A stretch of DNA of 32,000 nt. It comes from Thermosulfurimonas dismutans (GTDB lineage Bacteria > Desulfobacterota > Thermodesulfobacteria > Thermodesulfobacteriales > Thermodesulfobacteriaceae). Shown piece after piece: positions 14,344 to 32,000 of this stretch. Each line of letters begins with the position of its first letter. Positions within the stretch are counted from its first letter, which is position 1. The position numbers and the translations under genes were made by a program. The DNA lies in the NCBI RefSeq assembly GCF_001652585.1, contig NZ_LWLG01000005.1:30001-62000 (forward strand), in the 5' to 3' direction. The notes under the pieces are model-generated. The model saw only the letters and a list, made by a program, of their open reading frames with translations, was not told where the DNA came from and searched no databases.

Positions 14344-14348
14344 GGCCC

Positions 14349-15166: not shown

Positions 15167-15169
15167 GGT

Positions 15170-15706: not shown

Positions 15707-15717
15707 CCTTCGTCTCC

Positions 15718-16707: not shown

Positions 16708-16716
16708 GCCCTCCTC

Positions 16717-17946: not shown

Positions 17947-17949
17947 ACC

Positions 17950-18498
17950 CTACCCCTCCCTGACCTTACGGTCTCCCCATTCATAACGGCATAATTCCCT
18001 AGCCTTCGCCCGGACTTTGTCATATTCCGGCCATTCTTCTTCTGGCTGTAAAGCATAGTCCTTTCGGAGAGGATAACCCTTCCAGTCTTCGGGCATGAGG
18101 ATCCGTCTGAGATCCGGATGTCCCTTAAACCGGATGCCAAACATGTCGTAACACTCTCGCTCAAACCAGTTGGCCACCTGCCAGATCTTGGTCACCGAGG
18201 GCACCCAAGGATCCTTCTCCGGAACCGGAACTTTTACCCGCAGAAATTCGCGTTTACCTATAGAATAGAGGTTATAGACCACCTCGAAACGCTCGGGCTT
18301 TTTACCCTTTCCCTTCCAACCCAGGTAATCTACCCCACCCAGGTCAGCCAGATGATCAAAACCCAGCTCATCATGAAGGAACTTCATAACCTCTAGGAGG
18401 TAATTACGATCTACATATACCATAGCTTGTCCGCAAGACGTCTCTTCTCCCAGAACCGCCTGCGGGAAACGCTCTTTAAGTTTGTCTAAGGCCTCCAT
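17950..18498 (-). CDS. nuoC: NADH-quinone oxidoreductase subunit C (30-kDa subunit)
   Basis: NuoC pattern: SVTKIWQVANWFERECYDMFGIRFKGHPDLRRILMPEDWKGYPLRKDY. The gene is separate from nuoD, not a CD fusion. Confidence 0.9.
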   Translation of the reverse strand: MEALDKLKERFPQAVLGEETSCGQAMVYVDRNYLLEVMKFLHDELGFDHLADLGGVDYLGWKGKGKKPERFEVVYNLYSIGKREFLRVKVPVPEKDPWVPSVTKIWQVANWFERECYDMFGIRFKGHPDLRRILMPEDWKGYPLRKDYALQPEEEWPEYDKVRAKARELCRYEWGDRKVREG

Positions 18499-18507
18499 AA
18501 GCTTCCC

Positions 18508-19023
18508 CTATCGCCAGAATCCCCAGTGTCCGGCCTCGCGCCGGATCTTCTCCTGAAGCTTCATAAGACCATATATGAGAGCCTCGGGCCTCGGAGGACA
18601 GCCCGGGATATAGACGTCTACCGGCAGAAACTCATCGCAGCCCTGAACGGTGGAATAAGTCCTAAAGACCCCCCCGGAACAAGCACAGCTCCCCATAGCA
18701 ATCACATAGCGGGGCTCAGGCATCTGATCATATACCCTCCTTACTATAGGGGCCATCTTCTTAGTAACCGTTCCGGCCACGATCAAGACGTCCGCTTGTC
18801 TGGGCGAGGCCCGAAAGATAATCCCAAAACGGTCAAGATCGTGGTGACTGGCCCCAGTAGCCATCATCTCGATAGCGCAGCAGGCCAACCCGAAGGTCAT
18901 GGGCCAGAGAGAACCGGTTCGAGCCCAGTTGATAAGCTTGTCTACAGGCGTGATAAAAGCCGGCGTTCCCGGAATGTGCCTTATATCCGGAGCCACTTCT
19001 ACCGTTTCCTTTTCTACTCCCAT
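18508..19023 (-). CDS. nuoB: NADH-quinone oxidoreductase subunit B (N2 cluster subunit)
   Basis: Motifs [18 protein letters not shown] and [11 protein letters not shown]. The ORF-track start at 19134 lies inside nuoA. ATG 19023 ([10 protein letters not shown]...) overlaps the nuoA stop (19014-19016) and gives a normal 171-aa NuoB. Confidence 0.9.
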
Positions 19024-19385
19024 CTGAAAGCCCCCCTGATCCAGGCGTAAAAGTAAGCCACCAGAAGCAAAGCGATAAAGATTACCATTTCGATGTAGGC
19101 CAGAGCCCCGATCTTTCCGAAGGAAACCGCCCAAGGATAGAGGAAAACCGCTTCCACATCAAAGACTACAAAAAGGATAGCAATAGCATAAAATTTGACC
19201 GAAAAGGGATGACGAGGTTCTCCTGAAGGCGGAAGACCGCATTCATATCTCTCGAGCTTTTCAGGATAGGGCCTCTTTAAGCCCAAAATCTGATTCACAA
19301 TGATCATGGAAAGCCCAATCACAAAAACTAAGATCGCCAAGATGAGAATAGGCAGATATTTACTGGCTAGCCCCAGCTCCCCCAC
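19014..19385 (-). CDS. nuoA: NADH-quinone oxidoreductase subunit A
   Basis: NuoA/ND3 pattern: [39 protein letters not shown]. It uses a GTG start at 19385, preceded by GGAGG (6-nt spacer) that lies inside the 3' end of the upstream ferredoxin gene. Confidence 0.88.
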
Positions 19386-19842
19386 CCTTGCCCTCCTTTT
19401 TGGGAGCAGTCTTTTTCTTCACTGCCTTTTTGGCTGGAGGTTTGACTTCCTTCACTGCTAGGGCCTCGTTCGGACAGGCCGAAACGCAGTAAGGCTTTTC
19501 CCCTCCGGCCACCCGATCTTTACAGAGATCACATTTGTTTATCTTCCCTGTATGAGGATTAAACCTCGGCACTCCCCACGGACAAGCATAAACACAATTC
19601 ACACAGCCTACGCAAAGATCGCTTATCACGACAACCACTTCATTTTCACGGCGCATAGCTCCGGTAGGACAGACCTCCGCACATTGAGGCCGCTTGCACT
19701 GCATACAGGAAAAATAGGCAAAAGCCTTTCCGACCTTAAGAATTTGACAGTTGGCTACCCCTTCGTGGGTCTCGGCACAGGCCGAAATACAAGAAAAACA
19801 ACCATCACATTTTTCATAATTATGTTCTACTGTGTACGGCAT
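19360..19842 (-). CDS. Four-cluster [4Fe-4S] ferredoxin-like protein (DmsB/NrfC/HybA-type fold) with a Lys-rich C-terminal tail; first gene of the nuo operon
   Basis: Four Cys groups are present: CDGCFSCISAC, CMQCKRPQCAEVCP, CVGCVNCVYACP and CDLCKDRVAGGEKPYCVSACP. The tail is [27 protein letters not shown]. The 3' end overlaps nuoA by 26 nt. ATG 19842 (MPYTV...) is preferred, because the TTG at 19878 coincides with a TTGACT -35-like hexamer. Confidence 0.8.
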   Translation of the reverse strand: MPYTVEHNYEKCDGCFSCISACAETHEGVANCQILKVGKAFAYFSCMQCKRPQCAEVCPTGAMRRENEVVVVISDLCVGCVNCVYACPWGVPRFNPHTGKINKCDLCKDRVAGGEKPYCVSACPNEALAVKEVKPPAKKAVKKKTAPKKEGKGGGAGASQ

Positions 19843-19908
19843 GGCCTTATTTATGCCTAAAACCGAAAATAAAGTCAAGCGTAAAGTTTTTTGATTGCTC
19901 AGCCTTGT

Positions 19909-20663: not shown

Positions 20664-20739
20664 TCGGTCGTAGTTTCTTATGATAAGAGAAGTTTCCAAA
20701 ATTTTAAAGAGGAGGGATGGGTATGGCCCGATTAAAGGG

Positions 20740-21972
20740 ATGGAGAATTGGATTTTTGGGATTTTTTGGGTTTTTATTCGTATTTTTTTGTCAGTTTCAA
20801 CGGTTCAGGCCAGGCCTTCCAAGTGTGAAGAATGTCACCAAAAGGTTACCCCTGGCATAGTCAAGGATTTCAACCGTTCTAAAATGGCTAAGAAACTTAC
20901 CTGTGCCACCTGCCATGGCAAGTCTCACATGAGCGAAAACGATACGGACAAGGCCAAATTGCCCACTATCGAGACCTGTAAGCGCTGTCATGCCAAGCAA
21001 GCCAAACAGTATATGTCCGGCAAGCACTTTCTGGGCTGGATAGCCATGAACGCTATGCCCACCACTCACATGCAGCCCAGTCCGGTAAACAAGGGACGCA
21101 AAGGTTGCGGTGGATGCCACTCTTTGGGAGCTACCAAGGAAGCCAAAAAAGATCCTTATTATCCCAAGTACGCTATGGACTGTCAGAACTGCCACACCCG
21201 GCACGCCTTCTCGGTGGAGGAGGCCCGGGAACCCGAGGCCTGCATGACCTGCCACATGGGGTTTGACCATCCACAGTGGGAGATGTGGTCTACCTCCAAG
21301 CACGGGGCGGCCTACGTGATCGACCGGCTGCTCGGGCGTCCCATTGAAGATCGTCGTGGGCCCCGTTGCCAGACCTGTCACATGCCAAACGGCGACCACC
21401 GGGTGATGACCGCCTGGGGATTCCTCGGCCTCCGGGTTCCCGAGGACGACAAGGAGTGGTGGAACTACCGGGTGACCATCCTCAAGGGACTCCATGTGCT
21501 CACTCCGGACGGCAAGTTCACCGAGCGGCTGGATGTAGTGAAGGCTGGGAAGGTAGTCCGTCTCACCAAGGAGGAATGGCAGGCCGAAAGGGATCGCATG
21601 ATAAAGGTCTGCACGCAGTGTCACAACATCAACTTCGTTAAGGAGCAGCTCCAGCAGGCCGACATGATGCTCAAGGAGGCGGACAAGATCTTTGCCGAGG
21701 CCATCGAGATCGTGGCCGATCTGGCCCGGGATGGCATTATTAAACATGACGACGGCAATCCCTATCCTGATCTCCTGAGGTTCTATGAAACCCCTTACGA
21801 GATCGAGCAGAAGCTCTACCTCATGTTCATGGAATACCGCATGAGGACCTTCCAGGGGGCCTTTCACATGAACCCGGATTATTCCCACTGGTATGGCTGG
21901 GCGGAGATGAAAAAGACTCTGGTCGAGATAAAAGAGCTGGCCAAGGAGATGAGGGAGAAGGCCGGGAAATAA
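20740..21972 (+). CDS. hao: Octahaem cytochrome c of the hydroxylamine oxidoreductase (HAO) family; short form without a C-terminal membrane anchor
   Basis: Eight CXXCH motifs are present: CEECH, CATCH, CKRCH, CGGCH, CQNCH, CMTCH, CQTCH, CTQCH. The block CQNCHTRHAFSVEEAREPEACMTCHMGFDHPQWEMWSTSKHG and CQTCHMPNGDHRVMTAWGFLGLR match my recollection of HAO-family conserved regions. The N-terminus is hydrophobic, with VQA|RP. The start is uncertain (20680, 20740, or a frame-shifted 20723; see findings). Confidence 0.65.
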   Translation: MENWIFGIFWVFIRIFLSVSTVQARPSKCEECHQKVTPGIVKDFNRSKMAKKLTCATCHGKSHMSENDTDKAKLPTIETCKRCHAKQAKQYMSGKHFLGWIAMNAMPTTHMQPSPVNKGRKGCGGCHSLGATKEAKKDPYYPKYAMDCQNCHTRHAFSVEEAREPEACMTCHMGFDHPQWEMWSTSKHGAAYVIDRLLGRPIEDRRGPRCQTCHMPNGDHRVMTAWGFLGLRVPEDDKEWWNYRVTILKGLHVLTPDGKFTERLDVVKAGKVVRLTKEEWQAERDRMIKVCTQCHNINFVKEQLQQADMMLKEADKIFAEAIEIVADLARDGIIKHDDGNPYPDLLRFYETPYEIEQKLYLMFMEYRMRTFQGAFHMNPDYSHWYGWAEMKKTLVEIKELAKEMREKAGK

Positions 21973-23534: not shown

Positions 23535-25859
23535 TCAAAAATTTATGATCCCTAAGGCCTTTCTCAGGCTCACCAGGGCGTCGCCGATGGTGATCTGGCC
23601 GTCAGGCTGAGGCGTTCCGTCCGCCCCAAGCGGCGCCACATCCGCATGACACCGGTCCTCCTCACTCGGCGTCTCAAGCCCCAGGGCGAACCTTAAGGTC
23701 ACCAGGGCGTCGCCGATATTCACCTGTCCGTCCCGTGACCCTAGTGGAGCCACATCTCCGTCGGGGGTACATTCTAGCCCGTTTTTGCACTCACCGGTAT
23801 AGGCCACATTTACTCCTGCAAGATGGGCCTCGCAAGCGTTGGCATAGGTGCGCCCATCGCATCCGCAAACCGGATCATATACTTGTATACAGGCCTCTGG
23901 AAAAGGAACACATATTCCTGAACCACCACAACCGTCCTTCCGCCAGCAGAATTCCCCTGTTCTGCAATCCTGATTCAGAAAACAACCTGAACTTACTTTT
24001 ATGGTAACTATCGCCGATTTGTCTACCGCGTTTTCCTCATCCCTGACCTCACAATAGGCTGCATATTCTCCGGCTTCGTAATAAACATGAGTAAAATTCC
24101 CGCTTTCGTTTTCCTCCACCTCTCCATCCCCGAAATACACCGCATATCTTTCTATCCTTCCATCCTCATCTCTAGCCCTGCATCCAAACTTTACCTCAAG
24201 CGGGAGTTTACCTTCTGTAGGTTTAACCGAAAATTCCAAAATCTCCGGAGGCCGGTTTACTGACTTCACCATAAGGTTAATAGGAGAGGAATAATCACTC
24301 CAGGCCCCTTTATCATCCTTTACCTTGCACTTCGCAGTATAATTGCCAGGAAATATATATGTATAAGTAGAAATTTCTTCCCCAGATCGGATGATCGTTC
24401 CGTTTCCAGTATCAATAGCATATTCCACTACTCGTCCATCTGGATCGTGTGCTCTGCAGGTAAAAATAACCGTAAGCGGGGCCGAACCAGAAGCAGGTTC
24501 TGCGCTAAAGGAATCGATCACCGGTGGTTGATTGGGAGGTAAAAACTCTCTGGTCATAGCCACATAGGGAGCAGTTCGTCGGATGGTCTCCGCATTGCGT
24601 GTCTGTAAATCCCCGATGGGAACATTATCTAAGATCTGGTATTTTGTAGAGATATGGTCAATAATTCGATTGTCAGAAAAATATGGTATAGTCGGAGAAC
24701 AATAAGACATGATCGTACCGTATCCGTCTCCGCAATATCCATAACTGAAATCATAAACAGTCTGACCAGTAGCATGTTCTCTATCATGGTTACATCCCAG
24801 GTTGTGCCCAACCTCATGTATCAGAGTTGTCTGGTCACAATAATAAATACCGGTGCTTCCCACCTCTACCAAGGCTCTAAATAGTTTCTTCCGGTAGTAC
24901 TCGAGATAAGGGGAAGTAAAAATGTCTTCAGTATCGGGGATAAAGGCCATTCCACAACTCTCGTCCGAAGAGGTAAATTTCCTAAAAAGAACCGCTACAT
25001 CAGCGCCAGTCTCTTCAAGCCATTGAGGAAGAGCCGCAAATTCCTCCGTACCTTCGAACATTTTGCCCAGTACCGCTTCCATATCTTCATCTTCCGAGGT
25101 CTCAACCTTCCTGTAACCCACCGGTCTTAGAGAGACGTTGGTTTCACTATTTTCTAGAACTACGTTGGCAAAGTCAAAGAGGTTCTCAAGAACGGCTACC
25201 ACTCCGTCCTTTCCGTGTTCGTCCTCAAGCCCCGGCGTATAGAGAGCGAGAACGTCTATGACTACCGATGATCCCCCGGAGGCCAGAACTGGAAGCCCCC
25301 CTTTTAACCTCGACTTCGAAACTGGCTTTGCATCCGTTTCCGGCCCTTTGGAGGGCGTCGGTCTTTCCGGTGGGGGGGGAGGAACCGCCGGCCGGTCGGG
25401 GAGCCGCTGTAAGCCAGTAGTCTCCACCAGTACACCGAAATTTTCTGTATCTATGGGTTTGATTCGAAAACTGCGTCTCCCTAACCGTAAAGTTCCGGCG
25501 AGCCTTCCTTTTACCACCGTGAGCACTATCGTTCCGCCGCGGTACTCACCTTCTACAATTCTCCCAATCCATTTGGCACTGTCTCCTTTGATCTTTACTC
25601 GCCTAGTAACCGCATAAAAACTCTGGCCTCTGATTTCAAATCTGACAGGATCTCCAGAATGAATGGTTTTTAAAAGTTCAATATTTATTTTTACCAGAGT
25701 TGACCCCGTTCCTACTTTATCTCTAATATTCTTAGGCATAGAAGAAAATGGAAGCGTAATAAGAAGAGGAGTGTCTTCACTCCAGACGGGAGTCTGAAGG
25801 CAAACCAAACTAACTAGACCAAACAAAACCCATCTGCATAAAATCCTGCTCATCAACAT
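23535..25859 (-). CDS. Secreted multidomain metzincin: signal peptide, reprolysin (M12B)-like Zn-protease, 2x PKD, Cys-rich Kazal-like domain, C-terminal dockerin-like module
   Basis: - Zinc site HEVGHNLGCNHD, with a downstream Met-turn candidate GTIMSY.
- Two PKD-like repeats (SGSAPLTVIFTCRAHDPDGRVVEYAIDTGNG..., EGKLPLEVKFGCRARDEDGRIERYAVYFGDG...).
- Kazal-like CIQVYDPVCGCDGRTYANACEAHLAGVNVAYTGEC.
- The C-terminal 78 aa are shared with two neighbouring genes.
- ATG 25859 (MLMSRILCRWVLFGLVSLVCLQTPVWS, GAGAGGGG SD) is preferred over the TTG at 25880. Confidence 0.8.
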   Translation of the reverse strand: MLMSRILCRWVLFGLVSLVCLQTPVWSEDTPLLITLPFSSMPKNIRDKVGTGSTLVKINIELLKTIHSGDPVRFEIRGQSFYAVTRRVKIKGDSAKWIGRIVEGEYRGGTIVLTVVKGRLAGTLRLGRRSFRIKPIDTENFGVLVETTGLQRLPDRPAVPPPPPERPTPSKGPETDAKPVSKSRLKGGLPVLASGGSSVVIDVLALYTPGLEDEHGKDGVVAVLENLFDFANVVLENSETNVSLRPVGYRKVETSEDEDMEAVLGKMFEGTEEFAALPQWLEETGADVAVLFRKFTSSDESCGMAFIPDTEDIFTSPYLEYYRKKLFRALVEVGSTGIYYCDQTTLIHEVGHNLGCNHDREHATGQTVYDFSYGYCGDGYGTIMSYCSPTIPYFSDNRIIDHISTKYQILDNVPIGDLQTRNAETIRRTAPYVAMTREFLPPNQPPVIDSFSAEPASGSAPLTVIFTCRAHDPDGRVVEYAIDTGNGTIIRSGEEISTYTYIFPGNYTAKCKVKDDKGAWSDYSSPINLMVKSVNRPPEILEFSVKPTEGKLPLEVKFGCRARDEDGRIERYAVYFGDGEVEENESGNFTHVYYEAGEYAAYCEVRDEENAVDKSAIVTIKVSSGCFLNQDCRTGEFCWRKDGCGGSGICVPFPEACIQVYDPVCGCDGRTYANACEAHLAGVNVAYTGECKNGLECTPDGDVAPLGSRDGQVNIGDALVTLRFALGLETPSEEDRCHADVAPLGADGTPQPDGQITIGDALVSLRKALGIINF
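23538..23771 (-). repeat. Dockerin-like module, copy 1 (C-terminal; 78 codons; two internally duplicated segments)
   Basis: CTPDGDVAPLGSRDGQVNIGDALVTLRFALGLETPSEEDRCHADVAPLGADGTPQPDGQITIGDALVSLRKALGIINF. The internal duplication shows at the DNA level: the 18-mer caccagggcgtcgccgat occurs at 23571-23588 and again at 23700-23717. Confidence 0.8.
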
Positions 25860-25896
25860 AGAACCCCTCTCATCATACAAGACTTCTTAACTAATC

Positions 25897-27114
25897 GAGA
25901 CCTTTGCAAAATCAGATTGACAATTTTATTTCTCATAATAAACTCACTTAAAAACTAAAGGAGTTGAGCATGTATAAGAAACAGCATACTCAACTCACTT
26001 TCGGGGAAAATATTCTTTACCAAAACCTCCCGGATGACCTCCTCCTAGAACTCGACCGCCTCATCAACTGGAAACCCTTCGAACGCATTCTCTCCAAACT
26101 CCATCCCTCCTCCGTAGGACGCCCAGCCTACGATCCCCTCCTCATGCTCAAAATCCTCATCATCCAGCAAATCTACGGTCACTCCGACCCCGAAATGGAA
26201 ATCATGCTCTACGGCAACCTCTTCTACCGCCGCTTCCTCGGCCTTTCCGCTACCGATCCCGTTCCCGACCACTCCACCATCCCCCGCTTCCGTAAAGATC
26301 TTAAGTCCATGAACCTCTACAGAACCTGCTTCAAAGAACTCAAACGCCAGCTTGCCGAAAAGGGTTACGAGCTTAAGTGCGGCAAAATCACTGACGCCCG
26401 TCTGGTCAAAGCCGCCCGAAACCCCGGAAAAGGAGACTCTGATGCCGCCTTTGCCAAAAAGGGAAACCAAACCATCTACGGCTACAAAGACCACATCGCC
26501 GTGGACCCTAAACATGAATTCGTGACCGAATTCGTTTGCACCCCGGCCAATGTCCACGACTCCCAGGTGATCGATGAGCTCCTTTCCGGTGATGAGACCG
26601 CCATCTTTGCCGACAAGGCCTACGACTCCAGGGCTCTCAAAAGGTGGTGTCGGGAAAAGGGCGTTTACTATGGGGTCCTGGCTAAAGGAACCAGAAACCG
26701 CAAGATAAGCTCCTCCCAGAAAAAGAGGAATCGGAAGCTTGGAGCTGTAAGGCGGAAGGTGGAGAAGGTCTTCGGTATCTTTAGCCTTCATCTTAATCGG
26801 GCAAAAGCCAGGTATGTGGGCCTTGCGGCCAATGAGATCCATCTTTTCCTTACGGTCTTCACCTACAATCTCCTCAGGCTCTGGTGGCACCTGCGAAGGA
26901 AAAGAAGCGTCGTAGCAGTTTGACGTCACGGAAGAAGGAGGAGAAATGTGCCTGAAATAAGGAAAGAAGGGAAAAAGAGGCCCACAGAGGCTTCCGAAAA
27001 GCCAATCAGAGTAAAAATCCGGGGTATTTTCTATATCGGCAAGACGAAAATTTGATGTCATGCTCATCTTAAACAGACAACATGGCCTAAATTTCAGAAT
27101 TTTTCAAAGGTCTC
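25897..27114 (+). mobile_element. IS5-family insertion sequence (1218 bp) with 16-bp terminal inverted repeats and a flanking direct repeat
   Basis: The left end is GAGACCTTTGCAAAAT (25897-25912). The reverse complement of the right end is GAGACCTTTGAAAAAT (27114-27099), a 15/16 match. The direct repeat TAATC flanks the element (25892-25896 and 27115-27119). It reads CTAATC if the terminal C is shared, and it contains a CTAA YTAR-type target. One transposase ORF lies inside. Confidence 0.85.
25970..26923 (+). CDS. IS5-family DDE transposase (N-terminal DUF772-like plus DDE_Tnp_1-like domain)
   Basis: The N-terminal pattern is GRPAYDPLLMLKILIIQQIYGHSDPEMEIML...DHSTIPRFR. The DDE region includes KITDARLV...YGYKDHIAVD...FADKAYDS...VEKVFG. 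ATG 25970 has an AAGGAG SD 7 nt upstream, whereas the ORF track starts at TTG 25964. Confidence 0.88.
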   Translation: MYKKQHTQLTFGENILYQNLPDDLLLELDRLINWKPFERILSKLHPSSVGRPAYDPLLMLKILIIQQIYGHSDPEMEIMLYGNLFYRRFLGLSATDPVPDHSTIPRFRKDLKSMNLYRTCFKELKRQLAEKGYELKCGKITDARLVKAARNPGKGDSDAAFAKKGNQTIYGYKDHIAVDPKHEFVTEFVCTPANVHDSQVIDELLSGDETAIFADKAYDSRALKRWCREKGVYYGVLAKGTRNRKISSSQKKRNRKLGAVRRKVEKVFGIFSLHLNRAKARYVGLAANEIHLFLTVFTYNLLRLWWHLRRKRSVVAV

Positions 27115-27705
27115 TAATCGTCCTCGTCTTCTCTTCCCTTTTCGTTTCCTTCTTTTTTATATCCATGGGGACCGGACCCATCTGGTATGGAGGTATGGCA
27201 TACCAGACACGACCCGCTACCTAAAGGTTTGGCCTTTCCTTGAAGATTAATGACCTGCTCATTATCACGGTCGAGTTTGGAAGGCCACCAGGCATGGGGA
27301 GAATAATGACAAGTGGCACAATAAATACCGTGATGCCCCTTAGCATTGCGGTATAAAGTCGTCCCTGTATCGATCTCCTGCCCCCGGTGACAATCAGCAC
27401 ACTTCGGCTCCTCCAGCCAAGGCCTACGTCCGTTACGGAGACTTTCAGCCATTTCTACAAGTGTTCCGTGACACTTTTCGCAATCCTGCATGCCCTCAAG
27501 CTCCGTCCGCAAACACTTTGTCACCGGTCCGGGATGACAGTCGTAACAACCAGGCTGAGGATTCACCTGAGCGTGTTTGCCATGCATAGCCAAGGAAAGA
27601 TTGGGAAGCCCCGGAATTCCGGAAATTCCAGCTTCCTTAAACACCGGATCTTCATGACAATTTTGACAGAGAACAGGCCGGTTATTGAAAAGATCAGTGC
27701 CCTCC
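27114..27705 (-). pseudogene. 3' fragment of the IS-split beta-helix/dockerin/multihaem cytochrome gene (six CXXCH motifs)
   Basis: The native sequence resumes at ...EG-TDLFNNRPVLCQNCHED. It carries CQNCH, CYDCH, CEKCH, CADCH, CATCH and CLVCH. The first 38 codons of ORF 27114..27818 (27706-27818) are IS256-derived, and there is no native start. It is in the same frame as the 5' fragment once the IS plus one TSD copy (1269 nt = 423 codons) is removed. Confidence 0.85.
27698..27705. repeat. 8-bp target-site duplication TGCCCTCC (left copy) of the IS256-family element
   Basis: Identical to 28967-28974 and directly abutting the inverted-repeat termini. Confidence 0.9.
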
Positions 27706-28966
27706 GGGACTGTCCACCCTTCTGTGTAAATCCCATTATAGCCTATCCTCAAATAAAATTGAGAGCTGGGCGTAAATTGAAGGCCAATCCTTAATAGGGC
27801 GGCGCCATTTCCTCTCAAGCTCCATGGCCGCCATGTATAGACACTTAAGCAGAGACTCCTCTGTCGGAAAAACCCTCCTGCCCGCTGTTGCCTTCCGAAA
27901 TTTGCTGTTTACGCTCTCTATGATGTTCGTGGTATACATTACCCGCCTTATTTCAACCGGATACCTCAAAAACGTCGTTAAAGCCTCCCAATTCGCCTCC
28001 CAGCTCTTTACCACATGGGGATACTTTTCGCCCCATTTGGCCGAAAAATCTTCAAATTCTCTTTCGGCTACCTCAAGTGTAGGGGCCCCGTAAACCTTCT
28101 TGAGATCTCTGGCCAGCTCCCTTTTGTCTTTCCAGGAAACATATCTCAAAGAATTCCTGATCTGGTGTACCACACACCTCTGAATATCCGCCTTCGGAAA
28201 GGTTGCCTCTATAGCTTTATCTAACCCTGTTAACCCATCCACGCTGAAAATGAAGACATCTCTTACCCCCCGAGCCTTAAGATCATTGAGCACTCCTAGC
28301 CAAAATCGGCTAGACTCTGTCCCGTCTATCCAAAAGCCCAAAATTTCCTTGTAGCCTTCAAGATCTATACTTATAACTACATAGATGGCTTTCTTCCTTA
28401 CTTGGCCATCCTCTCGGATGTTGTAGAAAATGCAATCGATCCAAAGTAGAAAATATTTTTCTTTGAGTGGACGGGCTTGCCATTCCTTGATCTTGGGCAG
28501 AATCCGGTCTGTGATATTGGAAATCAGAGAAGGGCTTACGTCAAAACCATACATATCAGAAAGAATCTCCTGGATATCTCGGGTACTCATACCCTTGGCA
28601 TAAAGGGCTGTTATCTGATTTTCTATCTCATCAAGCATGGTTTGACGCTTCCTGATAAGTTGGGGCTCAAATTCCCCTTTCCGGTCTCTGGGAACTAGGA
28701 GCTCAATAGGGCCACAGGTGGTTTTCACGCTCTTGGGAGTGTAGCCGTTCCGATAATTGTCCGAATCAGAGCGCTCGTACTTCTTGTAGCCTAAGAACTC
28801 TTCCAGTTCGGCTTCCAGAACCTCTCCCAGGAATTCTCGAGTAAACTCTTTGATGGTGGCTTGTACTTCCTGTGGCTTAGTGGCCTTCTGAATTTTGCTC
28901 ATGGTGTCCACCCTCCTTTTTGTGATTTGGTCATTTTACAATTTCCACAATTGGGTGGACACTCCC
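27706..28966 (-). mobile_element. IS256-family insertion sequence (1261 bp) inserted in a coding sequence
   Basis: The termini are GGGACTGTCCACCCTTCTGTGTAAAT (27706-27731) and, as reverse complement, GGGAGTGTCCACCCAATTGTGGAAAT (28966-28941). They match at 20/26 positions, with 13/14 at the tips. A perfect 8-bp TSD flanks the element, which is typical of IS256. It has a single mutator-type transposase ORF. Confidence 0.92.
27736..28902 (-). CDS. IS256-family (Mutator-type) transposase
   Basis: Typical family blocks are present: RNGYTPKSVKTTCGPIELLVPRDRKGEFEPQLI, ALYAKGMSTRDIQEIL, LWIDCIFYNIRE, DGLTGLDKAIEATFPKADIQRCVVHQIRN, TTNIIESVNSKFRK. The C-terminus is ...WPSIYAQLSILFEDRL. ATG 28902 has a GGAGG SD 9 nt upstream, whereas the ORF track starts at GTG 28911. 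Confidence 0.93.
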   Translation of the reverse strand: MSKIQKATKPQEVQATIKEFTREFLGEVLEAELEEFLGYKKYERSDSDNYRNGYTPKSVKTTCGPIELLVPRDRKGEFEPQLIRKRQTMLDEIENQITALYAKGMSTRDIQEILSDMYGFDVSPSLISNITDRILPKIKEWQARPLKEKYFLLWIDCIFYNIREDGQVRKKAIYVVISIDLEGYKEILGFWIDGTESSRFWLGVLNDLKARGVRDVFIFSVDGLTGLDKAIEATFPKADIQRCVVHQIRNSLRYVSWKDKRELARDLKKVYGAPTLEVAEREFEDFSAKWGEKYPHVVKSWEANWEALTTFLRYPVEIRRVMYTTNIIESVNSKFRKATAGRRVFPTEESLLKCLYMAAMELERKWRRPIKDWPSIYAQLSILFEDRL

Positions 28967-31478
28967 TGCCCTCCTCTTCGTCGTGTTTAAGAAGAATATT
29001 TCTCATAGTATCCGCACCGCCACTCCTTTCATGACATTTCTCACAGTGCATCTCATGAGACACCGGTACCACCGTCCTGGTGGTGGCCAGTACTTCTCCC
29101 GTAGCCTCATCCTTTACTACTACCTCTACTAGCGGATAAGGATTGAAATTCCCATTATTGTCAAAAGGCGTTACCGGCAGCCCTTCCGCTAAGAAACGAT
29201 CCCCCCGGAGCTCCATGACGCCCTGAAGGGTCTTTCCCGTAAGTCCGGTACATAACTGAACATCCATCCAAAAAAATTTCTTAACATAGTCCCAAAAATT
29301 AGTTCCCCGACAAGAGGTGTTCTCCAAGAGACGATACTCCACCCAAATTCCCTGGGTAACTATCTCCGGATGTTCCCCTTTTCTTATGACCTGAGCTATC
29401 AGGGTGTTGAAAGGAGGGAGAATGGACAGTTGAGAATAATCCTGATTGATACAATGCATACCCGGATCGTTATAGGCGATCACCACATACTCTCCGGCCT
29501 TACTACCACCTTCACCTCCGCCGTTTCCTCCGTTATCGGTGTTTCCTCCGTTCCAACTCACCAATCCCAGGGCCTTCCTCAATATCACCAACGCATCGCC
29601 GATGGTAATCTTGCCGTCCGGTTGCGGCTGGCCGTTTGCTCTGAGGGGGGCCACATCCGCATGGCACCGGTCCTCCTCACTTGGCGTCTCAAGCCCCAGG
29701 GCAAAACGCAGAGCCACCAGGGCGTCTCCGATATTGACCTCCCCGTCGCGGTTCCCCAGCGGAGCCACGTCACCATCGAGCGTGCAAATTTCTCCTTCTC
29801 GAAATTCATAAGCTCCAAGATCTACGCCCTGGTCCTGAGGTCTAGAAATCCCTTCCAGATCCCTTTCCGGAATCCTTCCCTCTATAGCGCCCACGGGTAA
29901 CCCTCTATCTATGGCGGGACTTCCTTCCTGAAGATGGGCGTCGAGGCGATTGATATCTTCTTCCTCTCGCAAGAGAGGATCTTCCTGAATATTGTGGGAT
30001 CCGATCTCCATCTGTATATCCGCTCTATAGATAAGATTATAGTCAATGGTTTCAGCCCGGGTACGGCCCTCTGGATCTCCGTCTCCGATAAGATCGGGCC
30101 AGTCTTCCCGGCCCGTGACGGTGACATTCCGATAACCGAAAAAGATATTGTTGAAGAGATGGAGGCGCTCCGAACCGTTACACGGTGGTGCCTCGGGAAA
30201 ATCGTGGGTATGACAATAGACTTCTATCAGGGCCCACCCTTCGGAGACTACGGTGGTATTGATGATATAACTCTGATCCCCGGGATTCATGGAAACGGAG
30301 ATGGCCGCTCCTCCGGCCCGGCAGGCGTCTCCACTGGCCACATCTCCCATCTCTTGAGCAAAATCTTTATTGGTAAAATAGTTACAGTTACTGATAGCTA
30401 TAGAATTAACTATATACACCGGACCTCCCACCTTGAGCTGATTACCGGCGTTCCCGTAAGCCTGAACCCGACGGAGGGTGATGAAACTATCCGGATGGTT
30501 CACTCCCACGTAAAGAAGGTCCAGCCCGTCGGAGGTATTGTAGCGAAAGAGGCTGTCTTCGAAAATCCAGGTTCCTCCTGATCGGGCTACTCCTACTCCA
30601 TCTCCGTAACCCCCATGGGACTGCGCCCAGCAATGTTCGAGCCTCTCCTCGGGATAGGTCTCCACGCAACCGTTCCATTCCACAATGAAATTTTTGAAAT
30701 ACAATTGCCCCTGATTAGAAGAGGGGGCACCGTCCAGGTCGCCGTTCCATCCTGACCAGCCGTTTCCCGCGATCCTTACCCTCTCCACCTGCCAGTTTTC
30801 AAGACGCCCGGCTTTTATTCCGTCTGCTCCCAGACCATGGATATTCAAGTCCCTCAAAGTCACGTTGGAGGAATCTGAAGCGTAAATACCAGCGTAAGCC
30901 CAGTCGCCAAAAGGAGAATTTTCATACTCGCAGGCCACCGAAGAATGGCCACCGTTGTGAAAGTAGGCACAACTTTCATGGTCTGTAATCTCCAGACAGG
31001 CTATTTCTACGTTGGAAGACCCCCGCAGATTAAGTATCTGCCAGACCCTTCCCGTCCCCCACAATTCCGGAGGATTGGTGCAGCCCGAATCCCAGCCGTA
31101 GCCTACGATTCTGGTGGGATGTTCCGCATCCGGCCCTGAGGGTACCGGAGGAAGAGCGCAGTCGTAAGCAAACTCCGGATAACACCAGCCCTCGGTGTTC
31201 GGCGCCTTGTAACCGATCACATAGCTTCCTGCGTGAATGACCAGGGTATCCCCTCCCCGAATCCTCCAGCGGGCCTCGCCGTTTTCGATCTTGAGGGCCC
31301 AGAAGGGATGAGACCAGGCACAGGGCTGTCCTTTGCCCTCTCCCGGATAAGGAGCATCCACCAGCCCGGTGCACTGTTCCGCGGTCCCTCCGTCCGGACG
31401 AACGTAGTAAGTAGCCGCCTGTAACCCATCCAGGTTTAAAAAAAGGAGAGCCATCAGGCCAAGAACCACTCCAAGCAT
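28899..31478 (-). CDS. 5' fragment (truncated by IS256 insertion) of a secreted protein: signal peptide, right-handed beta-helix domain, internal dockerin-like module, Gly-rich linker, start of a multihaem cytochrome c domain
   Basis: - Signal peptide MLGVVLGLMALLFLNLDGLQA|ATYYVRPDGG.
- Beta-helix-type repeats (NVTLRDLNIHG, ...VERVRIAGNGWSGWNGD...).
- Dockerin-like module at 29553-29786.
- Linker NGGNTDNGGNGGGEGGSKAG.
- First haem motif CEKCHE.
Native coding ends at 28967. The last 22 codons (RECPPNCGNCKMTKSQKGGWTP*) are read from the IS right end. Confidence 0.85.
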   Translation of the reverse strand: MLGVVLGLMALLFLNLDGLQAATYYVRPDGGTAEQCTGLVDAPYPGEGKGQPCAWSHPFWALKIENGEARWRIRGGDTLVIHAGSYVIGYKAPNTEGWCYPEFAYDCALPPVPSGPDAEHPTRIVGYGWDSGCTNPPELWGTGRVWQILNLRGSSNVEIACLEITDHESCAYFHNGGHSSVACEYENSPFGDWAYAGIYASDSSNVTLRDLNIHGLGADGIKAGRLENWQVERVRIAGNGWSGWNGDLDGAPSSNQGQLYFKNFIVEWNGCVETYPEERLEHCWAQSHGGYGDGVGVARSGGTWIFEDSLFRYNTSDGLDLLYVGVNHPDSFITLRRVQAYGNAGNQLKVGGPVYIVNSIAISNCNYFTNKDFAQEMGDVASGDACRAGGAAISVSMNPGDQSYIINTTVVSEGWALIEVYCHTHDFPEAPPCNGSERLHLFNNIFFGYRNVTVTGREDWPDLIGDGDPEGRTRAETIDYNLIYRADIQMEIGSHNIQEDPLLREEEDINRLDAHLQEGSPAIDRGLPVGAIEGRIPERDLEGISRPQDQGVDLGAYEFREGEICTLDGDVAPLGNRDGEVNIGDALVALRFALGLETPSEEDRCHADVAPLRANGQPQPDGKITIGDALVILRKALGLVSWNGGNTDNGGNGGGEGGSKAGEYVVIAYNDPGMHCINQDYSQLSILPPFNTLIAQVIRKGEHPEIVTQGIWVEYRLLENTSCRGTNFWDYVKKFFWMDVQLCTGLTGKTLQGVMELRGDRFLAEGLPVTPFDNNGNFNPYPLVEVVVKDEATGEVLATTRTVVPVSHEMHCEKCHERSGGADTMRNILLKHDEEEGRECPPNCGNCKMTKSQKGGWTP
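28967..28974. repeat. 8-bp target-site duplication TGCCCTCC (right copy) of the IS256-family element
   Basis: Identical to 27698-27705. Confidence 0.9.
29553..29786 (-). repeat. Dockerin-like module, copy 2 (internal position)
   Basis: CTLDGDVAPLGNRDGEVNIGDALVALRFALGLETPSEEDRCHADVAPLRANGQPQPDGKITIGDALVILRKALGLVSW. It shares a 28-nt identical run with copy 3 (29713-29740 = 31691-31718). Confidence 0.8.
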
Positions 31479-31500
31479 TTCTCCCCCTTTTTGATCCCCA

Positions 31501-31522
31501 CCGGGCGGGCTATCCCGCCCGG
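31501..31522 (-). other. GC-rich intercistronic hairpin between the third dockerin-module gene and the beta-helix gene
   Basis: CCGGGCGGG-ctat-CCCGCCCGG gives a 9-bp stem in the 49-nt spacer. The transcribed strand has no U-tract after it (GGUGGGGAUCAAAAAGGGGGAGAA-AUG follows), so it is more likely an mRNA stability or processing element than a full terminator. Confidence 0.35.
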
Positions 31523-31527
31523 TCCTT

Positions 31528-32000
31528 TTAAAAGTTCACTAACCTTAAAGCCTTCCTCAAAATCACCAGGGCATCGCCGATGGTGATCCGGCCATCGGGA
31601 TGGGGTTTCCCATCCTCCCCTAGAGGAGCCACGTCCGCATGGCACTTATCCTCATCGCTTGGTGTCTCAAGCCCTAAAGCAAACCGCAGGGCCACCAGGG
31701 CGTCTCCGATATTGACCTGACCATCACGGTTCCCCAGCGGAGCTACGTCGCCGTCAGGAGTGCAGGTAGCTTTTCTTCTGGCAAGCACAAAGACCGGATC
31801 AATCTCTCCGTTCTGGTCGCAGCACAGAGTGACCCTCAAGGTATGTTCGTTTAGCTGTTCATAGGACACTTCCCGCCAATCGGGAAGCTTATAAAGATGG
31901 AATTCTCCGGTTATTTCCCTCTCTACAGTTACCTCGAAATCGTAACATTGTCCGGGATTTCCGGTGGCGGTAACAATAAAGGCCTCGGATTCTTGAAGAT
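31528..32000 (-). CDS. Secreted/unknown protein with C-terminal dockerin-like module; 5' end outside the window
   Basis: The ORF-track start (31869) is an internal GTG. The same frame stays open to base 32000 (LQESEAFIVTATGNPGQCYDFEVTVEREITGEFHLYKLPDWREVSYEQL...). The C-terminal 78 aa form the shared module. Confidence 0.75.
   Translation of the reverse strand, partial: LQESEAFIVTATGNPGQCYDFEVTVEREITGEFHLYKLPDWREVSYEQLNEHTLRVTLCCDQNGEIDPVFVLARRKATCTPDGDVAPLGNRDGQVNIGDALVALRFALGLETPSDEDKCHADVAPLGEDGKPHPDGRITIGDALVILRKALRLVNF
31531..31764 (-). repeat. Dockerin-like module, copy 3 (C-terminal)
   Basis: CTPDGDVAPLGNRDGQVNIGDALVALRFALGLETPSDEDKCHADVAPLGEDGKPHPDGRITIGDALVILRKALRLVNF. Confidence 0.8.

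What the first reader, a model, noticed from the sequence alone, without database searches (positions are those of the whole stretch)
27114..31478. Reconstructed 1031-aa protein fuses beta-helix, dockerin-like module and a heptahaem cytochrome c: an unusual extracellular redox architecture
Deleting 27706-28974 in silico (the IS plus one TSD copy) joins ...MRNILLKHDEEEG to TDLFNNRPVLCQNCHED in frame. The result is one 1031-codon ORF with this order:
- Sec signal peptide
- about 540-aa right-handed beta-helix (the fold of polysaccharide lyases and adhesins)
- dockerin-like module
- Gly/Asn linker
- about 170-aa domain starting YVVIAYNDPGMHCINQDY
- seven CXXCH haem sites in total: CEKCH, CQNCH, CYDCH, CEKCH, CADCH, CATCH, CLVCH

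I know of no characterised protein that combines a carbohydrate-active-type beta-helix with a multihaem cytochrome through a dockerin-like hinge. It suggests a surface-tethered electron conduit, for example for mineral or polymer-associated electron transfer. That role is inference only.
Basis: partly seen in the sequence, partly recalled or inferred. Interest (0 to 1): 0.75.

Follow-up and report, generated by a model that had tools for sequence, protein, structure and literature searches.

The report
IS-split beta-helix–dockerin–heptahaem cytochrome fusion gene
A Thermosulfurimonas dismutans gene, now cut by a mobile element, once encoded one secreted protein joining a sugar-enzyme-like beta-helix, a docking module and a seven-haem cytochrome; the join is real but is a one-off of two common, freely shuffled modules and has no demonstrated role.

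Summary
An IS256-family element (27706-28966, 26-nt inverted repeats, 8-bp duplication TGCCCTCC) splits a minus-strand gene. Removing it restores a 1031-codon ORF with seven CXXCH sites.

Profile searches and structure prediction confirm each part:
- a right-handed beta-helix (aa 22-559)
- a dockerin type I-like module (565-642)
- a Gly/Asn linker
- a complete member of a widespread, uncharacterised heptahaem cytochrome family (664-1031). The "170-aa domain" is that family's own beta-sandwich.

- The fusion is a singleton. No protein among 5.8 billion clusters or 1.84 billion representatives joins the two families.
- The families are not genomic neighbours in 84 loci.
- Each family is usually a stand-alone secreted protein carrying varied adhesion or anchor modules.

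The gene lies in a T. dismutans island of dockerin-tagged secreted proteins that also includes a cohesin-bearing scaffold. Pectin-lyase-like plus multihaem cytochrome fusions are already described in ANME archaea, and dockerin-bearing members of this cytochrome family exist.

My best reading is a recent lineage-specific fusion, later inactivated by the IS, that would have docked a cytochrome onto a cohesin scaffold. It is a new variant of a known kind, of moderate interest.

The parts
31416..31478 (-). Start codon and predicted Sec signal peptide (aa 1-21, MLGVVLGLMALLFLNLDGLQA)
   Evidence: Its hydrophobic stretch aligns with the signal peptides of homologues. The mature ends of those homologues start at the same ATYYVRPDGG motif. 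This is inferred; no signal-peptide predictor was available.
29802..31415 (-). Right-handed parallel beta-helix head (aa 22-559) of a widespread 'choice-of-anchor Q' family, ending in the ...GVDLGAYEF cap
   Evidence: Pfam PF13229 scores 38.6 bits. NCBIfam NF041518 scores 40.4 bits at aa 512-559. Homologues are 50-65% identical across many phyla. The AF2 model has pLDDT above 90, and Foldseek matches PL9, GH136, alginate epimerases and other beta-helix proteins.
29553..29786 (-). Dockerin type I-like module (aa 565-642): two copies of DVAPLG..DG.[VI].IGDAL..LR.ALGL
   Evidence: Pfam Dockerin_1 scores 23.5 bits against a cut-off of 22.9 when the module is scanned alone. Near-identical modules end two neighbouring genes. 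NCBI names T. dismutans paralogues 'dockerin type I repeat-containing'. A cohesin-bearing protein, P0303, lies on the same contig.
29490..29552 (-). Gly/Asn-rich linker (aa 643-663)
   Evidence: Read directly from the sequence. Stand-alone homologues of the cytochrome carry a similar G/N/S-rich linker between their signal peptide and the core.
29046..29489 (-). N-terminal beta-sandwich of the cytochrome family (aa 664-811), with the invariant N-D-x-G-M-H-C motif
   Evidence: Alignment A1 gives the invariant columns. In the AF2 model (pLDDT 89.5) residues 3-142 are all beta. Foldseek finds only generic Ig-like matches.
28975..29045 (-). Start of the haem domain: haem site 1 (CEKCH, aa 812-816) up to the IS insertion point in codon 835
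28967..28974 (.). Target-site duplication, copy 2 (TGCCCTCC)
27706..28966 (-). IS256-family insertion sequence (1261 bp) with its transposase ORF at 27736-28911
   Evidence: Pfam Transposase_mut, E 2.9e-120. The 26-nt inverted repeats are at 27706-27731 and 28941-28966.
27698..27705 (.). Target-site duplication, copy 1 (TGCCCTCC)
27114..27705 (-). Remainder of the haem domain: haem sites 2-7 (aa 848-1005), acidic C-terminal tail and stop codon
   Evidence: It is 64-76% identical to intact stand-alone homologues, which have the same acidic tail. Pfam Cytochrome_C7 and Cytochrom_c3_2 score above their cut-offs.
23535..25880 (-). Context: reprolysin-like metalloprotease with two PKD domains and a Kazal domain, ending in the same dockerin-like module (...LRKALGIINF*)
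31528..32000 (-). Context: 3' end of the upstream gene, which ends in the same dockerin-like module (...LRKALRLVNF*). A GC-rich hairpin follows before the start of the target gene.
25964..26923 (+). Context: second mobile element, an IS5/IS1182-type DDE transposase lying between the target gene and the metalloprotease gene
   Evidence: Pfam DDE_Tnp_1 and DUF772.

Best explanation
This is a Thermosulfurimonas dismutans gene that was a lineage-specific in-frame fusion of two unrelated families of secreted proteins and has since been inactivated by an IS256-family insertion.

The two parts:
- Part 1 is a signal peptide, a roughly 540-aa beta-helix head of the 'choice-of-anchor Q' family, and a dockerin-like tail. 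That architecture exists elsewhere as a complete protein.
- Part 2 is a full copy of a widespread heptahaem cytochrome c family, made of a beta-sandwich and seven bis-ligated c-haems. This family is normally a stand-alone exported protein of 400-450 aa with its own signal peptide and Gly/Asn linker.

Context:
- The gene sits in a genomic island that encodes several dockerin-tagged secreted proteins (metalloprotease, PKD, CAP and others).
- The same contig encodes a 1567-aa protein with a cohesin domain.

How it most likely worked (inferred):
- The intact product was exported by Sec and haem-loaded in the periplasm.
- It was then held on the cohesin scaffold through its dockerin, now internal to the protein.
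- This would have placed an electron-transfer module next to a glycan-binding or glycan-cleaving beta-helix on the cell surface or matrix.

How the fusion most likely arose (inferred):
- The stop codon, intergenic region and signal peptide between two adjacent genes were lost.
- One possible route is recombination between a C-terminal and an N-terminal dockerin-coding repeat. Both placements occur in this genome.

Present state (shown):
- The IS cuts codon 835, after haem site 1.
- The strain can therefore make at most an 859-aa beta-helix-dockerin protein with a crippled cytochrome stub.
- The downstream 3' fragment has no export signal.
- The absence of further stops or frameshifts, and full retention of all family-invariant residues, show that the insertion is recent.
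For: The IS and the repair:
- Anatomy of the IS and the in-frame repair.

Identity of the modules:
- Beta-helix.
- Dockerin-like module.
- Cytochrome.

Each half exists as a separate protein:
- 119 of the 119 other top beta-helix hits lack any CXXCH and cover only 52-63% of the query.
- In the 115 closest cytochrome homologues in which the N[DE]xGMHC motif was located, the median stretch before the motif is 58 aa, enough for a signal peptide and linker.

The fusion is a singleton:
- An exhaustive phmmer search with aa 400-834 against 1.84 billion representatives gave 3179 hits. None spans both halves.
- tblastn of the beta-helix and dockerin modules against 84 cytochrome loci with 10-kb flanks gave no hit.

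Both families are modular:
- Beta-helix tails include PKD, CARDB, BACON, TSP3, dockerin-like and others.
- The cytochrome is found fused to dockerin, BACON, FG-GAP, Fn3, PASTA, InlB-B, or a CydA-like membrane domain with a cbb3-type cytochrome c.

The proposed precursors exist:
- Beta-helix-dockerin-STOP occurs in P0301 and P0375.
- Signal peptide-dockerin-X occurs in P0340 and in T. dismutans P0369.

The cohesin-dockerin island:
- At least six more proteins with this module are encoded on the same 97,894-bp contig.
- P0303 has Pfam Cohesin at 33.3 bits against a cut-off of 24.1.

Misassembly is unlikely:
- The three dockerin-coding copies in the window are 76% identical on average at the DNA level, which is too divergent to mislead an assembler.
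Against: - No intact allele or orthologue of the fusion was found, so there is no evidence that the fused protein was ever made, folded or useful.
- An internal dockerin may not bind cohesin.
- The signal peptide has no basic n-region.
- Transport across the outer membrane of this diderm is not explained.
- The recombination origin is conjecture. The dockerin copies are only about 76-80% identical in DNA, and no parental two-gene arrangement was recovered.
- The cytochrome family's function is unknown. It has an invariant NDxGMHC motif, an invariant extra Cys, and only six conserved non-motif His for seven haems. These features would also fit a catalytic haem rather than a pure wire.
Confidence: 0.7

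Rival explanations
1. One reading: the intact 1031-aa protein is a selected, functional surface-tethered electron conduit. The beta-helix binds a polymer or the sulfur or mineral surface, and the heptahaem module carries electrons to or from it. The IS copy is an incidental recent hit, possibly arising in the laboratory.
For: - The ORF repairs perfectly, and all invariant residues of both families are intact.
- The cytochrome family is often fused to adhesion or anchor modules, including dockerins.
- A cohesin scaffold exists in the genome.
- ANME MHC-C proteins show that a pectin-lyase-like domain plus a multihaem cytochrome is a recurring solution (PMC9012536).
- Some family members are fused to a CydA-like quinol-oxidising membrane domain, which points to electron transfer out of the quinone pool.
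Against: - The fusion is a singleton among 1.84 billion representatives.
- The two families show no genomic linkage.
- The allele is disrupted in the sequenced strain.
- The published genome analysis of T. dismutans assigns this gene no role (PMC4911364).
- No porin or periplasmic cytochrome partner lies next to it in the window.
Confidence: 0.18
2. The fusion is an artefact of assembly or sequencing. Two separate genes, a beta-helix-dockerin gene and a (dockerin-)cytochrome gene, were joined at the repeated dockerin-coding sequence, or a stop codon was lost through a sequencing error.
For: - The dockerin-coding module is repeated at least three times within 8 kb, and more often on the contig.
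- The genome is a draft, with a contig of 97,894 bp.
- In both neighbouring genes the module is followed directly by a stop codon.
Against: - The copies average only 76% DNA identity and share only short exact runs, so reads would not be confused.
- The reading frame continues for 21 codons of Gly/Asn linker, a feature typical of the cytochrome family, and then through 368 further codons.
- The NCBI protein of 859 aa is 99% identical to the window ORF over its whole length (83% of the reconstructed query), so the window matches the deposited assembly.
Confidence: 0.05
3. The cytochrome module is not a wire but a redox enzyme of sulfur or nitrogen chemistry, with one haem carrying non-His or open ligation. 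The fusion targeted that enzyme to a surface scaffold.
For: - There are seven haem motifs but only six conserved non-motif histidines.
- M674, C676 (in NDxGMHC) and C899 are invariant, as is R901; several other Arg and Tyr residues are nearly invariant (alignment A1 numbering plus 661).
- His/Cys-ligated catalytic haems are known in TsdA, SoxAX and MccSep (PMC13510729).
- The closest homologues come from sulfur disproportionators such as Dissulfuribacter.
- One homologue lies next to a TusA/DsrE/Hdr-like cluster.
Against: - The family is spread over phyla with no common sulfur metabolism, including Bacteroidales, Chloroflexota, Acidobacteriota and Planctomycetota.
- Genomic contexts are not conserved.
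- There is no sequence or fold relation to MccSep, NrfA, OTR or TsdA.
- Haem ligation could not be read from the model, because no coordinates or haems were available.
Confidence: 0.07

Closest known systems
ANME 'MHC type C' multihaem cytochromes (Chadwick et al. 2022, PLoS Biol, PMC9012536)
   Same: [quoted passage not shown] It is predicted to be extracellular, with a proposed role in binding a partner or matrix while transferring electrons.
   Different: - The ANME proteins are archaeal, with more than 10 and usually dozens of haems, and have no dockerin between the parts.
- Homology of either part to the T. dismutans protein was not tested.
- The ANME proteins recur across genomes, whereas this fusion is a singleton.
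Dockerin-bearing and other modular members of the same heptahaem cytochrome family (e.g. P0161, P0209 from Chloroflexi; P0230 BACON; P0145 FG-GAP; P0265 PASTA)
   Same: They share the same beta-sandwich plus seven-haem core (44-50% identity) fused to adhesion or anchoring modules, including canonical Pfam dockerins.
   Different: - In those proteins the dockerin is C-terminal and the added modules are small; the longest stretch before the conserved motif among the 115 closest homologues with it is 265 aa.
- Here about 660 aa precede the core, among them a beta-helix of enzyme size, and the dockerin is internal.
Cellulosomal and non-cellulosomal cohesin-dockerin systems (Bayer et al.; Peer et al. 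2009, cited in PMC9012536)
   Same: Secreted catalytic or binding modules, including beta-helix polysaccharide lyases, carry a duplicated Ca-loop/helix dockerin. A protein with a cohesin domain is encoded nearby.
   Different: - The dockerin here is a variant (DVAPLG..DG...) that only just reaches the Pfam threshold.
- The host is a chemolithoautotrophic sulfur disproportionator with no polysaccharide lifestyle.
- One cargo is a multihaem cytochrome.
- Binding was not tested.
MtrC/OmcA/MtrF/UndA outer-surface decahaem cytochromes of Shewanella
   Same: A beta-rich domain is packed against a multihaem domain. There is a weak Pfam match to MtrC/MtrF domains II/IV, and the location is presumed to be the cell surface.
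   Different: - The Pfam score (25.2 bits) is below the cut-off of 30.
- This protein has seven haems and two domains rather than ten haems and four domains.
- It has no lipobox, and no MtrAB-type porin-cytochrome genes are nearby.
- No PDB match was found by sequence, profile or Foldseek.

Membership tests
Right-handed parallel beta-helix / pectin-lyase fold (Pfam PF13229) | Profile match above the curated cut-off | tested here: met
   38.6 bits against 25.9, at aa 149-292
Right-handed parallel beta-helix / pectin-lyase fold (Pfam PF13229) | Predicted three-dimensional fold matches solved beta-helix proteins | tested here: met
   The AF2 model has pLDDT above 90 over the head. Foldseek matches 1ru4 Pel9A at E 9e-10, as well as GH136, PL6, AlgE4 and tailspikes.
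Right-handed parallel beta-helix / pectin-lyase fold (Pfam PF13229) | Catalytic residues of a defined CAZy family (PL1/PL9 Ca site and Brønsted base, or GH28 Asp triad) | not tested
   Identity to the structural matches is 14% or less, and no residue-level superposition was available. Profile searches against the PDB gave E of 0.012 or worse.
Choice-of-anchor Q domain proteins (NCBIfam NF041518) | Domain model match above the cut-off, at the C-terminal cap of the beta-helix | tested here: met
   40.4 bits against 25, at aa 512-559. NCBI gives the 859-aa product this name.
Dockerin type I (Pfam PF00404) | Profile match above the curated cut-off | tested here: inconclusive
   16.2 bits within the full protein. 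Scanned alone, the three copies in the window score 23.5, 18.1 and 24.6 bits against a cut-off of 22.9.
Dockerin type I (Pfam PF00404) | Tandem duplication of a Ca-binding loop followed by a helix | tested here: met
   Two repeats of DVAPL(G/R)..(D/N)G...DG.[VI].IGDAL..LR.ALGL are visible in the sequence. The model predicts two helices there, but at low pLDDT.
Dockerin type I (Pfam PF00404) | A cohesin partner encoded in the same genome | tested here: met
   P0303 (OAQ20917, T. dismutans, same 97,894-bp contig) has Pfam Cohesin at 33.3 bits against 24.1.
Dockerin type I (Pfam PF00404) | Ca-dependent binding to cohesin | not testable with these tools
   Needs a binding assay or at least a complex prediction.
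Multihaem cytochrome c | Several CXXCH motifs conserved among homologues | tested here: met
   Seven motifs, all invariant in 62 sequences. Pfam Cytochrome_C7 scores 29.8 bits against 24.8, and Cytochrom_c3_2 scores 27.5 bits against 25.
Multihaem cytochrome c | Export signal, so that the periplasmic maturation system can attach haem | tested here: inconclusive
   The fusion has only the N-terminal signal peptide of the beta-helix part, which is inferred by alignment. The fragment downstream of the IS has none.
MtrC/OmcA-type outer-surface decahaem cytochromes | Match to the MtrC/MtrF domain II/IV model above the cut-off; ten haems in four domains | tested here: not met
   25.2 bits against 30. 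The protein has seven haems and two domains.
MccSep polysulfide-reducing selenocytochrome (PMC13510729) | Five haems in an N-terminal helical cap, a C-terminal Ig-like stem, and a Sec/Cys catalytic pair | tested here: not met
   The protein has seven haems, its beta domain is N-terminal, and no PDB sequence or profile hit was found.
ANME MHC type C | [quoted passage not shown] | tested here: not met
   The order of modules is the same, but there are seven haems and the host is a bacterium. Homology was not tested.
IS256 family insertion sequence | Mutator-type DDE transposase, terminal inverted repeats, 8-9 bp target duplication, length about 1.2-1.5 kb | tested here: met
   PF00872 at E 2.9e-120; 26-nt inverted repeats; 8-bp duplication TGCCCTCC and a length of 1261 bp. 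The family criteria are taken from general knowledge of ISfinder families.

The most novel reading that the evidence does not exclude
Thermosulfurimonas dismutans assembles a cellulosome-like extracellular complex on a cohesin scaffold. The intact allele of this gene would deliver a heptahaem cytochrome, rigidly coupled to a glycan- or surface-binding beta-helix, into that complex. This would be a docked extracellular redox machine in a thermophilic sulfur disproportionator, possibly used to contact insoluble sulfur or minerals.
Probability: 0.1. Interest if true: 0.7.

Novelty: new variant of a known kind. Interest (0 to 1): 0.4.

Why it matters
If the intact fusion were functional, it would be the first bacterial case of a multihaem cytochrome delivered to the cell surface as cargo of a cohesin-dockerin system and welded to a carbohydrate-active-type beta-helix. 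That bears on how sulfur disproportionators and other bacteria reach insoluble substrates.

As it stands, the value lies mostly in three by-products:
1. A clean example of domain shuffling followed by IS inactivation, inside an island of dockerin-tagged secreted proteins.
2. A very widespread heptahaem cytochrome family, present in at least 587 of the species-representative genome stretches scanned, with no solved structure or assigned function. It fuses promiscuously to adhesion modules and, in some members, to a CydA-like quinol-oxidising membrane domain.
3. An unusually conserved secreted beta-helix family (50-65% identity across phyla, about 14 conserved cysteines) of unknown function.

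Both families are good targets for structural and biochemical work. The fusion itself is weak evidence for any physiology.

Tried and rejected
Searches that led nowhere:
- PDB searches with each half found nothing significant, whether by sequence or by profile. The best cytochrome hit was a reaction-centre cytochrome at E 0.0014 over two haem motifs.
- Foldseek of the cytochrome model against the PDB matched only the beta-sandwich, and only to generic Ig-like folds (TM-score normalised to query length 0.2 or less).
- The look-up of encoding contigs for P0001 and P0303 returned nothing, so the T. dismutans contig beyond the window could not be read.
- The exact 234-aa ORF B is not in the protein collection.
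- Literature searches for 'heptaheme' and 'choice-of-anchor' found no characterisation of either family.

Ideas considered and rejected:
- A relation to the newly described sulfur-respiration selenocytochrome MccSep, which has a T. dismutans homologue. It is rejected because MccSep has five haems, the opposite domain order, a different locus tag and no sequence match.
- Conserved gene neighbourhoods for the cytochrome. Three closest homologues sit in unrelated contexts. One of them lies next to TusA/DsrE/Hdr-like genes, but this is not conserved.
- A shared C-terminal tail between the cytochrome homologue P0124 and the beta-helix homologue P0002. BLASTP shows no similarity (E 1.1).
- P0273 as a dockerin-cytochrome fusion. 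Pfam shows that its N-terminal part is an IPT/TIG domain, not a dockerin.
- A difference in base composition between the two halves. GC is 0.51-0.60 in the beta-helix part and 0.45-0.52 in the cytochrome part. The difference is too small, and the neighbouring genes too variable, to argue for separate origins.

Full report
**1. Observation**

The feature lies on the minus strand. The ORF listing gives three ORFs:
- an 859-aa ORF at 28899-31478
- a 391-aa ORF at 27736-28911
- a 234-aa ORF at 27114-27818

The middle ORF is a Mutator/IS256-type transposase (Pfam PF00872, E 2.9e-120). It lies inside a 1261-bp element at 27706-28966. The element has 26-nt terminal inverted repeats that are 81% complementary. 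An exact 8-bp direct repeat, TGCCCTCC, flanks it at 27698-27705 and 28967-28974.

Removing 27706-28974 gives 3096 nt, which is 1031 codons plus a stop. The junction reads ...KHDEEEG|TDLFNNRPVLCQNCH, and the IS interrupts codon 835. Seven CXXCH motifs lie at residues 812, 848, 888, 910, 937, 964 and 1001.

The window comes from Thermosulfurimonas dismutans. The 859-aa ORF is 99% identical to an NCBI protein of that species, named 'choice-of-anchor Q domain-containing protein'.

**2. The modules**

Residue map:

| Module | Residues |
|---|---|
| Signal peptide | 1-21 |
| Beta-helix | 22-559 |
| Dockerin-like module | 565-642 |
| Gly/Asn linker | 643-663 |
| Beta-sandwich | 664 to about 811 |
| Haem domain | 812-1031 |

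*Beta-helix.* The call passes three independent tests:
- Pfam Beta_helix scores 38.6 bits against a cut-off of 25.9.
- NCBIfam choice_anch_Q scores 40.4 bits against 25.
- An AlphaFold2 model built on 63 homologues has pLDDT above 90 across the head.

The best PDB matches of that model are pectate lyase Pel9A (E 9e-10), GH136 lacto-N-biosidases, rhamnogalacturonan lyase and alginate epimerases, all at 14% identity or less. This shows a carbohydrate-active-type fold, but not membership of any particular enzyme family.

*Dockerin-like module.* It is a tandem duplication of DVAPLG..DG.[VI].IGDAL..LR.ALGL. It scores 16.2 bits within the whole protein, but 23.5 bits against the cut-off of 22.9 when scanned alone. 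NCBI calls T. dismutans paralogues 'dockerin type I repeat-containing'.

*Cytochrome.* The '170-aa domain' beginning YVVIAYNDPGMHC is not an independent module. It is the beta-sandwich that every member of the cytochrome family carries in front of its haem domain.

**3. What each half is elsewhere**

*The beta-helix head.*
- It belongs to a very large family: 1432 hits among the 8000 candidates scored, and the top 120 all score 587 bits or more.
- Identity is 50-65% across Desulfobacterota, Nitrospirota, Acidobacteriota, Aminicenantes and even Micrarchaeia.
- All these homologues cover only 52-63% of the query, and none of the 119 others contains a CXXCH.
- After the conserved ...GVDLGAYE cap they end, or they continue into varied tails. 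These include PKD, CARDB, BACON, TSP3 repeats, Ig-like domains and dockerin-like modules.
- A protein of exactly the form 'beta-helix, this dockerin variant, stop' exists: P0301, 547 aa, from Thermodesulfobacteriota.

*The cytochrome half.*
- It belongs to an equally widespread family. There were 610 hits in the word-indexed search, and at least 587 of 600 candidate stretches from species-representative genomes were confirmed.
- The closest members are 64-76% identical: P0121 (421 aa), P0122 (403 aa) and Dissulfuribacter thermophilus P0123 (544 aa).
- Most members are stand-alone proteins. In the 115 closest homologues in which the conserved motif was located, the median distance from the N-terminus to the motif is 58 residues. 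That is enough for a signal peptide and a Gly/Asn/Ser-rich linker.
- All seven CXXCH are invariant in 62 sequences. So are N-D-x-G-M-H-C, five further histidines and one further cysteine.
- The AlphaFold2 model is confident (pLDDT 89.5, pTM 0.88). It shows an N-terminal beta-sandwich packed against a mostly helical haem domain.
- Nothing in the PDB resembles it by sequence, profile or Foldseek. The Pfam MtrC/MtrF domain II/IV match is below threshold.

**4. Is the fusion found anywhere else?**

No. A full-length fusion would have topped with well over 1000 bits, and only the T. dismutans protein itself does.

I then ran an exhaustive phmmer search with residues 400-834 against 1.84 billion cluster representatives. 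This query covers the end of the beta-helix, the dockerin, the linker, the beta-sandwich and haem site 1. Among the best 150 of 3179 hits, every protein matches the beta-helix end, the dockerin or the cytochrome, and none matches both ends.

The proteins with long regions in front of the cytochrome core carry other modules instead: PASTA, InlB B-repeats, Fn3, TIG, or a CydA-like membrane domain plus a cbb3-type cytochrome c.

tblastn of the beta-helix and dockerin modules against 84 loci holding the cytochrome gene with 10-kb flanks found nothing. The two families are therefore neither fused nor linked elsewhere.

**5. Local and genomic context**

The two neighbouring genes on the same strand end in the same dockerin variant, followed directly by a stop codon:
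- a reprolysin-like metalloprotease with PKD and Kazal domains at 23535-25880 (...LRKALGIINF*)
- the gene upstream of 31528 (...LRKALRLVNF*)

In the target gene the module reads ...LRKALGLVSW and runs on into the linker.

The representative search also recovered six or more further T. dismutans proteins with this module at 73-88% identity. Most are on the same 97,894-bp contig (OAQ20903, 20908, 20911, 20914, 20917, 20919). One, P0369/TDIS_2008, has the module at the N-terminus directly after its signal peptide.

OAQ20917 (P0303, 1567 aa) carries a Pfam Cohesin domain at 33.3 bits against a cut-off of 24.1, as well as a C-terminal dockerin.

The target gene therefore belongs to a non-cellulosomal cohesin-dockerin island. 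That is the strongest support for reading aa 565-642 as a real docking module. Two mobile elements lie in the same 6 kb.

**6. Explanation**

*Shown.* The locus is an IS256-disrupted gene. Its intact form joined a complete beta-helix-dockerin protein to a complete heptahaem cytochrome that lacks its own signal peptide.

*Inferred.*
- The fusion is a recent event specific to this lineage. The stop codon, spacer and signal peptide between two genes of the island were lost.
- Because dockerins occur at either end of T. dismutans proteins, recombination between a C-terminal and an N-terminal dockerin-coding repeat is an attractive route. I have no parental arrangement to show it.
- The IS insertion is also recent. 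There are no secondary stops or frameshifts, and every family-invariant residue is kept.
- The intact product would have been exported by Sec, haem-loaded in the periplasm and docked to a cohesin scaffold. That would hold an electron-transfer module beside a glycan-binding or glycan-cleaving beta-helix.
- In the sequenced strain only an 859-aa product can be made. It consists of the beta-helix, the dockerin, the beta-sandwich, one haem motif and 22 residues encoded by the IS. The 3' fragment has no export signal and so cannot receive haem.

Assembly error is unlikely, because the dockerin-coding copies average only 76% identity at the DNA level.

**7. Rival readings**

| Reading | Confidence | Basis |
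|---|---|---|
| A redox enzyme rather than a wire | 0.07 | Six conserved non-motif histidines for seven haems, and invariant Met and Cys residues; the haems could not be modelled |
| An assembly artefact | 0.05 | See section 6 |

**8. Comparison with what is known**

- A pectin-lyase-like domain fused to a multihaem cytochrome has been described for ANME 'MHC type C' proteins. There the domain is suggested to recognise partner cell walls (PMC9012536).
- Dockerin and cohesin proteins are prominent in ANME archaea and their sulfate-reducing partners.
- Within this cytochrome family, canonical dockerins occur at the C-terminus of Chloroflexi members (P0161, P0209).
- The published genome analyses of T. 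dismutans and strain F29 do not mention this gene.
- The sulfur-respiration selenocytochrome MccSep belongs to a different family.

The combination found here, a choice-of-anchor Q beta-helix with an internal dockerin and this heptahaem core, is unique in the databases searched. It is nevertheless a new variant of a known kind: a modular extracellular multihaem cytochrome carrying adhesion or anchoring domains.

**9. Verdict**

Interest is moderate (0.4). The fusion is a disrupted singleton with no evidence of function. It does, however, draw attention to a cohesin-dockerin island in a sulfur disproportionator and to two large, conserved, structurally uncharacterised families of secreted proteins.

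Noticed in passing
window 3824-7918 (+): Two apparent ORFs are one selenoprotein gene. ORF 3824-6280 contains 2Fe-2S, Fer4_20, Pyr_redox_2, 4Fe-4S and Molybdop_Fe4S4 domains and the start of a Molybdopterin domain. It ends in TGA at 6278-6280 and continues in frame into the ORF ending at 7918, which holds the rest of the Molybdopterin domain and Molydop_binding. The local peptide ARV-U-HGPSVAG is, from general knowledge, the classic selenocysteine site of formate dehydrogenase alpha. This would be a Sec-containing FdhA fused to an NAD(P)H/Fe-S module.
   Followed up: partly
T. dismutans proteins P0303, P0322, P0326, P0331, P0338, P0345, P0369 (outside the window; same 97,894-bp contig except P0369); window 23535-25880 and 31528-32000: T. 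dismutans encodes a non-cellulosomal cohesin-dockerin system. At least nine proteins carry the DVAPLG-type dockerin variant at the C- or N-terminus; they include PKD, CAP and metalloprotease proteins and the beta-helix. One 1567-aa protein has a Pfam Cohesin domain as well as a dockerin.
   Followed up: partly
alignment A2 (homologues of window 29802-31415, minus strand): The beta-helix head family is unusually conserved for a secreted beta-helix. Identity is 50-65% across bacterial phyla and a Micrarchaeia archaeon. Twelve cysteines are invariant and two nearly so, and there are invariant T-D-(H), H, D-G, N..DG.D, K and R positions. This suggests a disulfide-rich enzyme of unknown function.
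   Followed up: no
alignment A1 (homologues of aa 662-1031); protein numbering = A1 numbering + 661: The heptahaem family has an invariant N-D-x-G-M-H-C motif at the start of its beta-sandwich and an invariant Cys-x-Arg (C899, R901). It has only six conserved non-motif histidines (H675, H832, H876, H879, H959, H972) for seven haems. One haem may therefore have Met or Cys ligation or an open site.
   Followed up: no
proteins P0300 and P0343 (metagenomic): Some members of the heptahaem family are fused behind a CydA-like (cytochrome bd subunit I) membrane domain and a cbb3-type monohaem cytochrome c. This hints that the family takes electrons from the quinol pool.
   Followed up: no
window 25964-26923 (+): A second mobile element, an IS5/IS1182-type DDE transposase (DUF772 + DDE_Tnp_1), lies between the target gene and the metalloprotease gene. 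The 340-aa antisense ORF at 26045-27067 overlapping it is probably spurious.
   Followed up: no
window 31488-31525 (minus strand, between the upstream stop and the target start): A perfect GC-rich hairpin (CCGGGCGGG-ATAG-CCCGCCCGG) sits between the stop codon of the upstream dockerin gene and the ribosome-binding site (GGGGGAG) of the target gene. No T-run follows it, so it may be an attenuator or an RNA-stability element rather than a terminator.
   Followed up: no
window 20680-21972 (+): An unrelated 430-aa multihaem cytochrome (Pfam PF13447 'seven times multi-haem', 81 bits) is encoded about 5 kb from the target. It lies next to TIM, CoA-binding and ScpA genes.
   Followed up: no
window 16-3735 (+) and 9405-19878 (-): The rest of the window holds core metabolism. 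It encodes ACS/CODH beta and delta subunits and a pterin-binding protein (Wood-Ljungdahl pathway), together with a Nuo-type complex I operon.
   Followed up: no
locus L002 10001-11632 and flanks (metagenome, homologue P0129): One close homologue of the cytochrome is transcribed divergently from a cluster of ArsR-type regulator, TusA, FlpD, HdrA-like, HdrB/C-like and DsrE genes, which is a sulfur-trafficking context. This arrangement is not seen at the other two loci examined.
   Followed up: no
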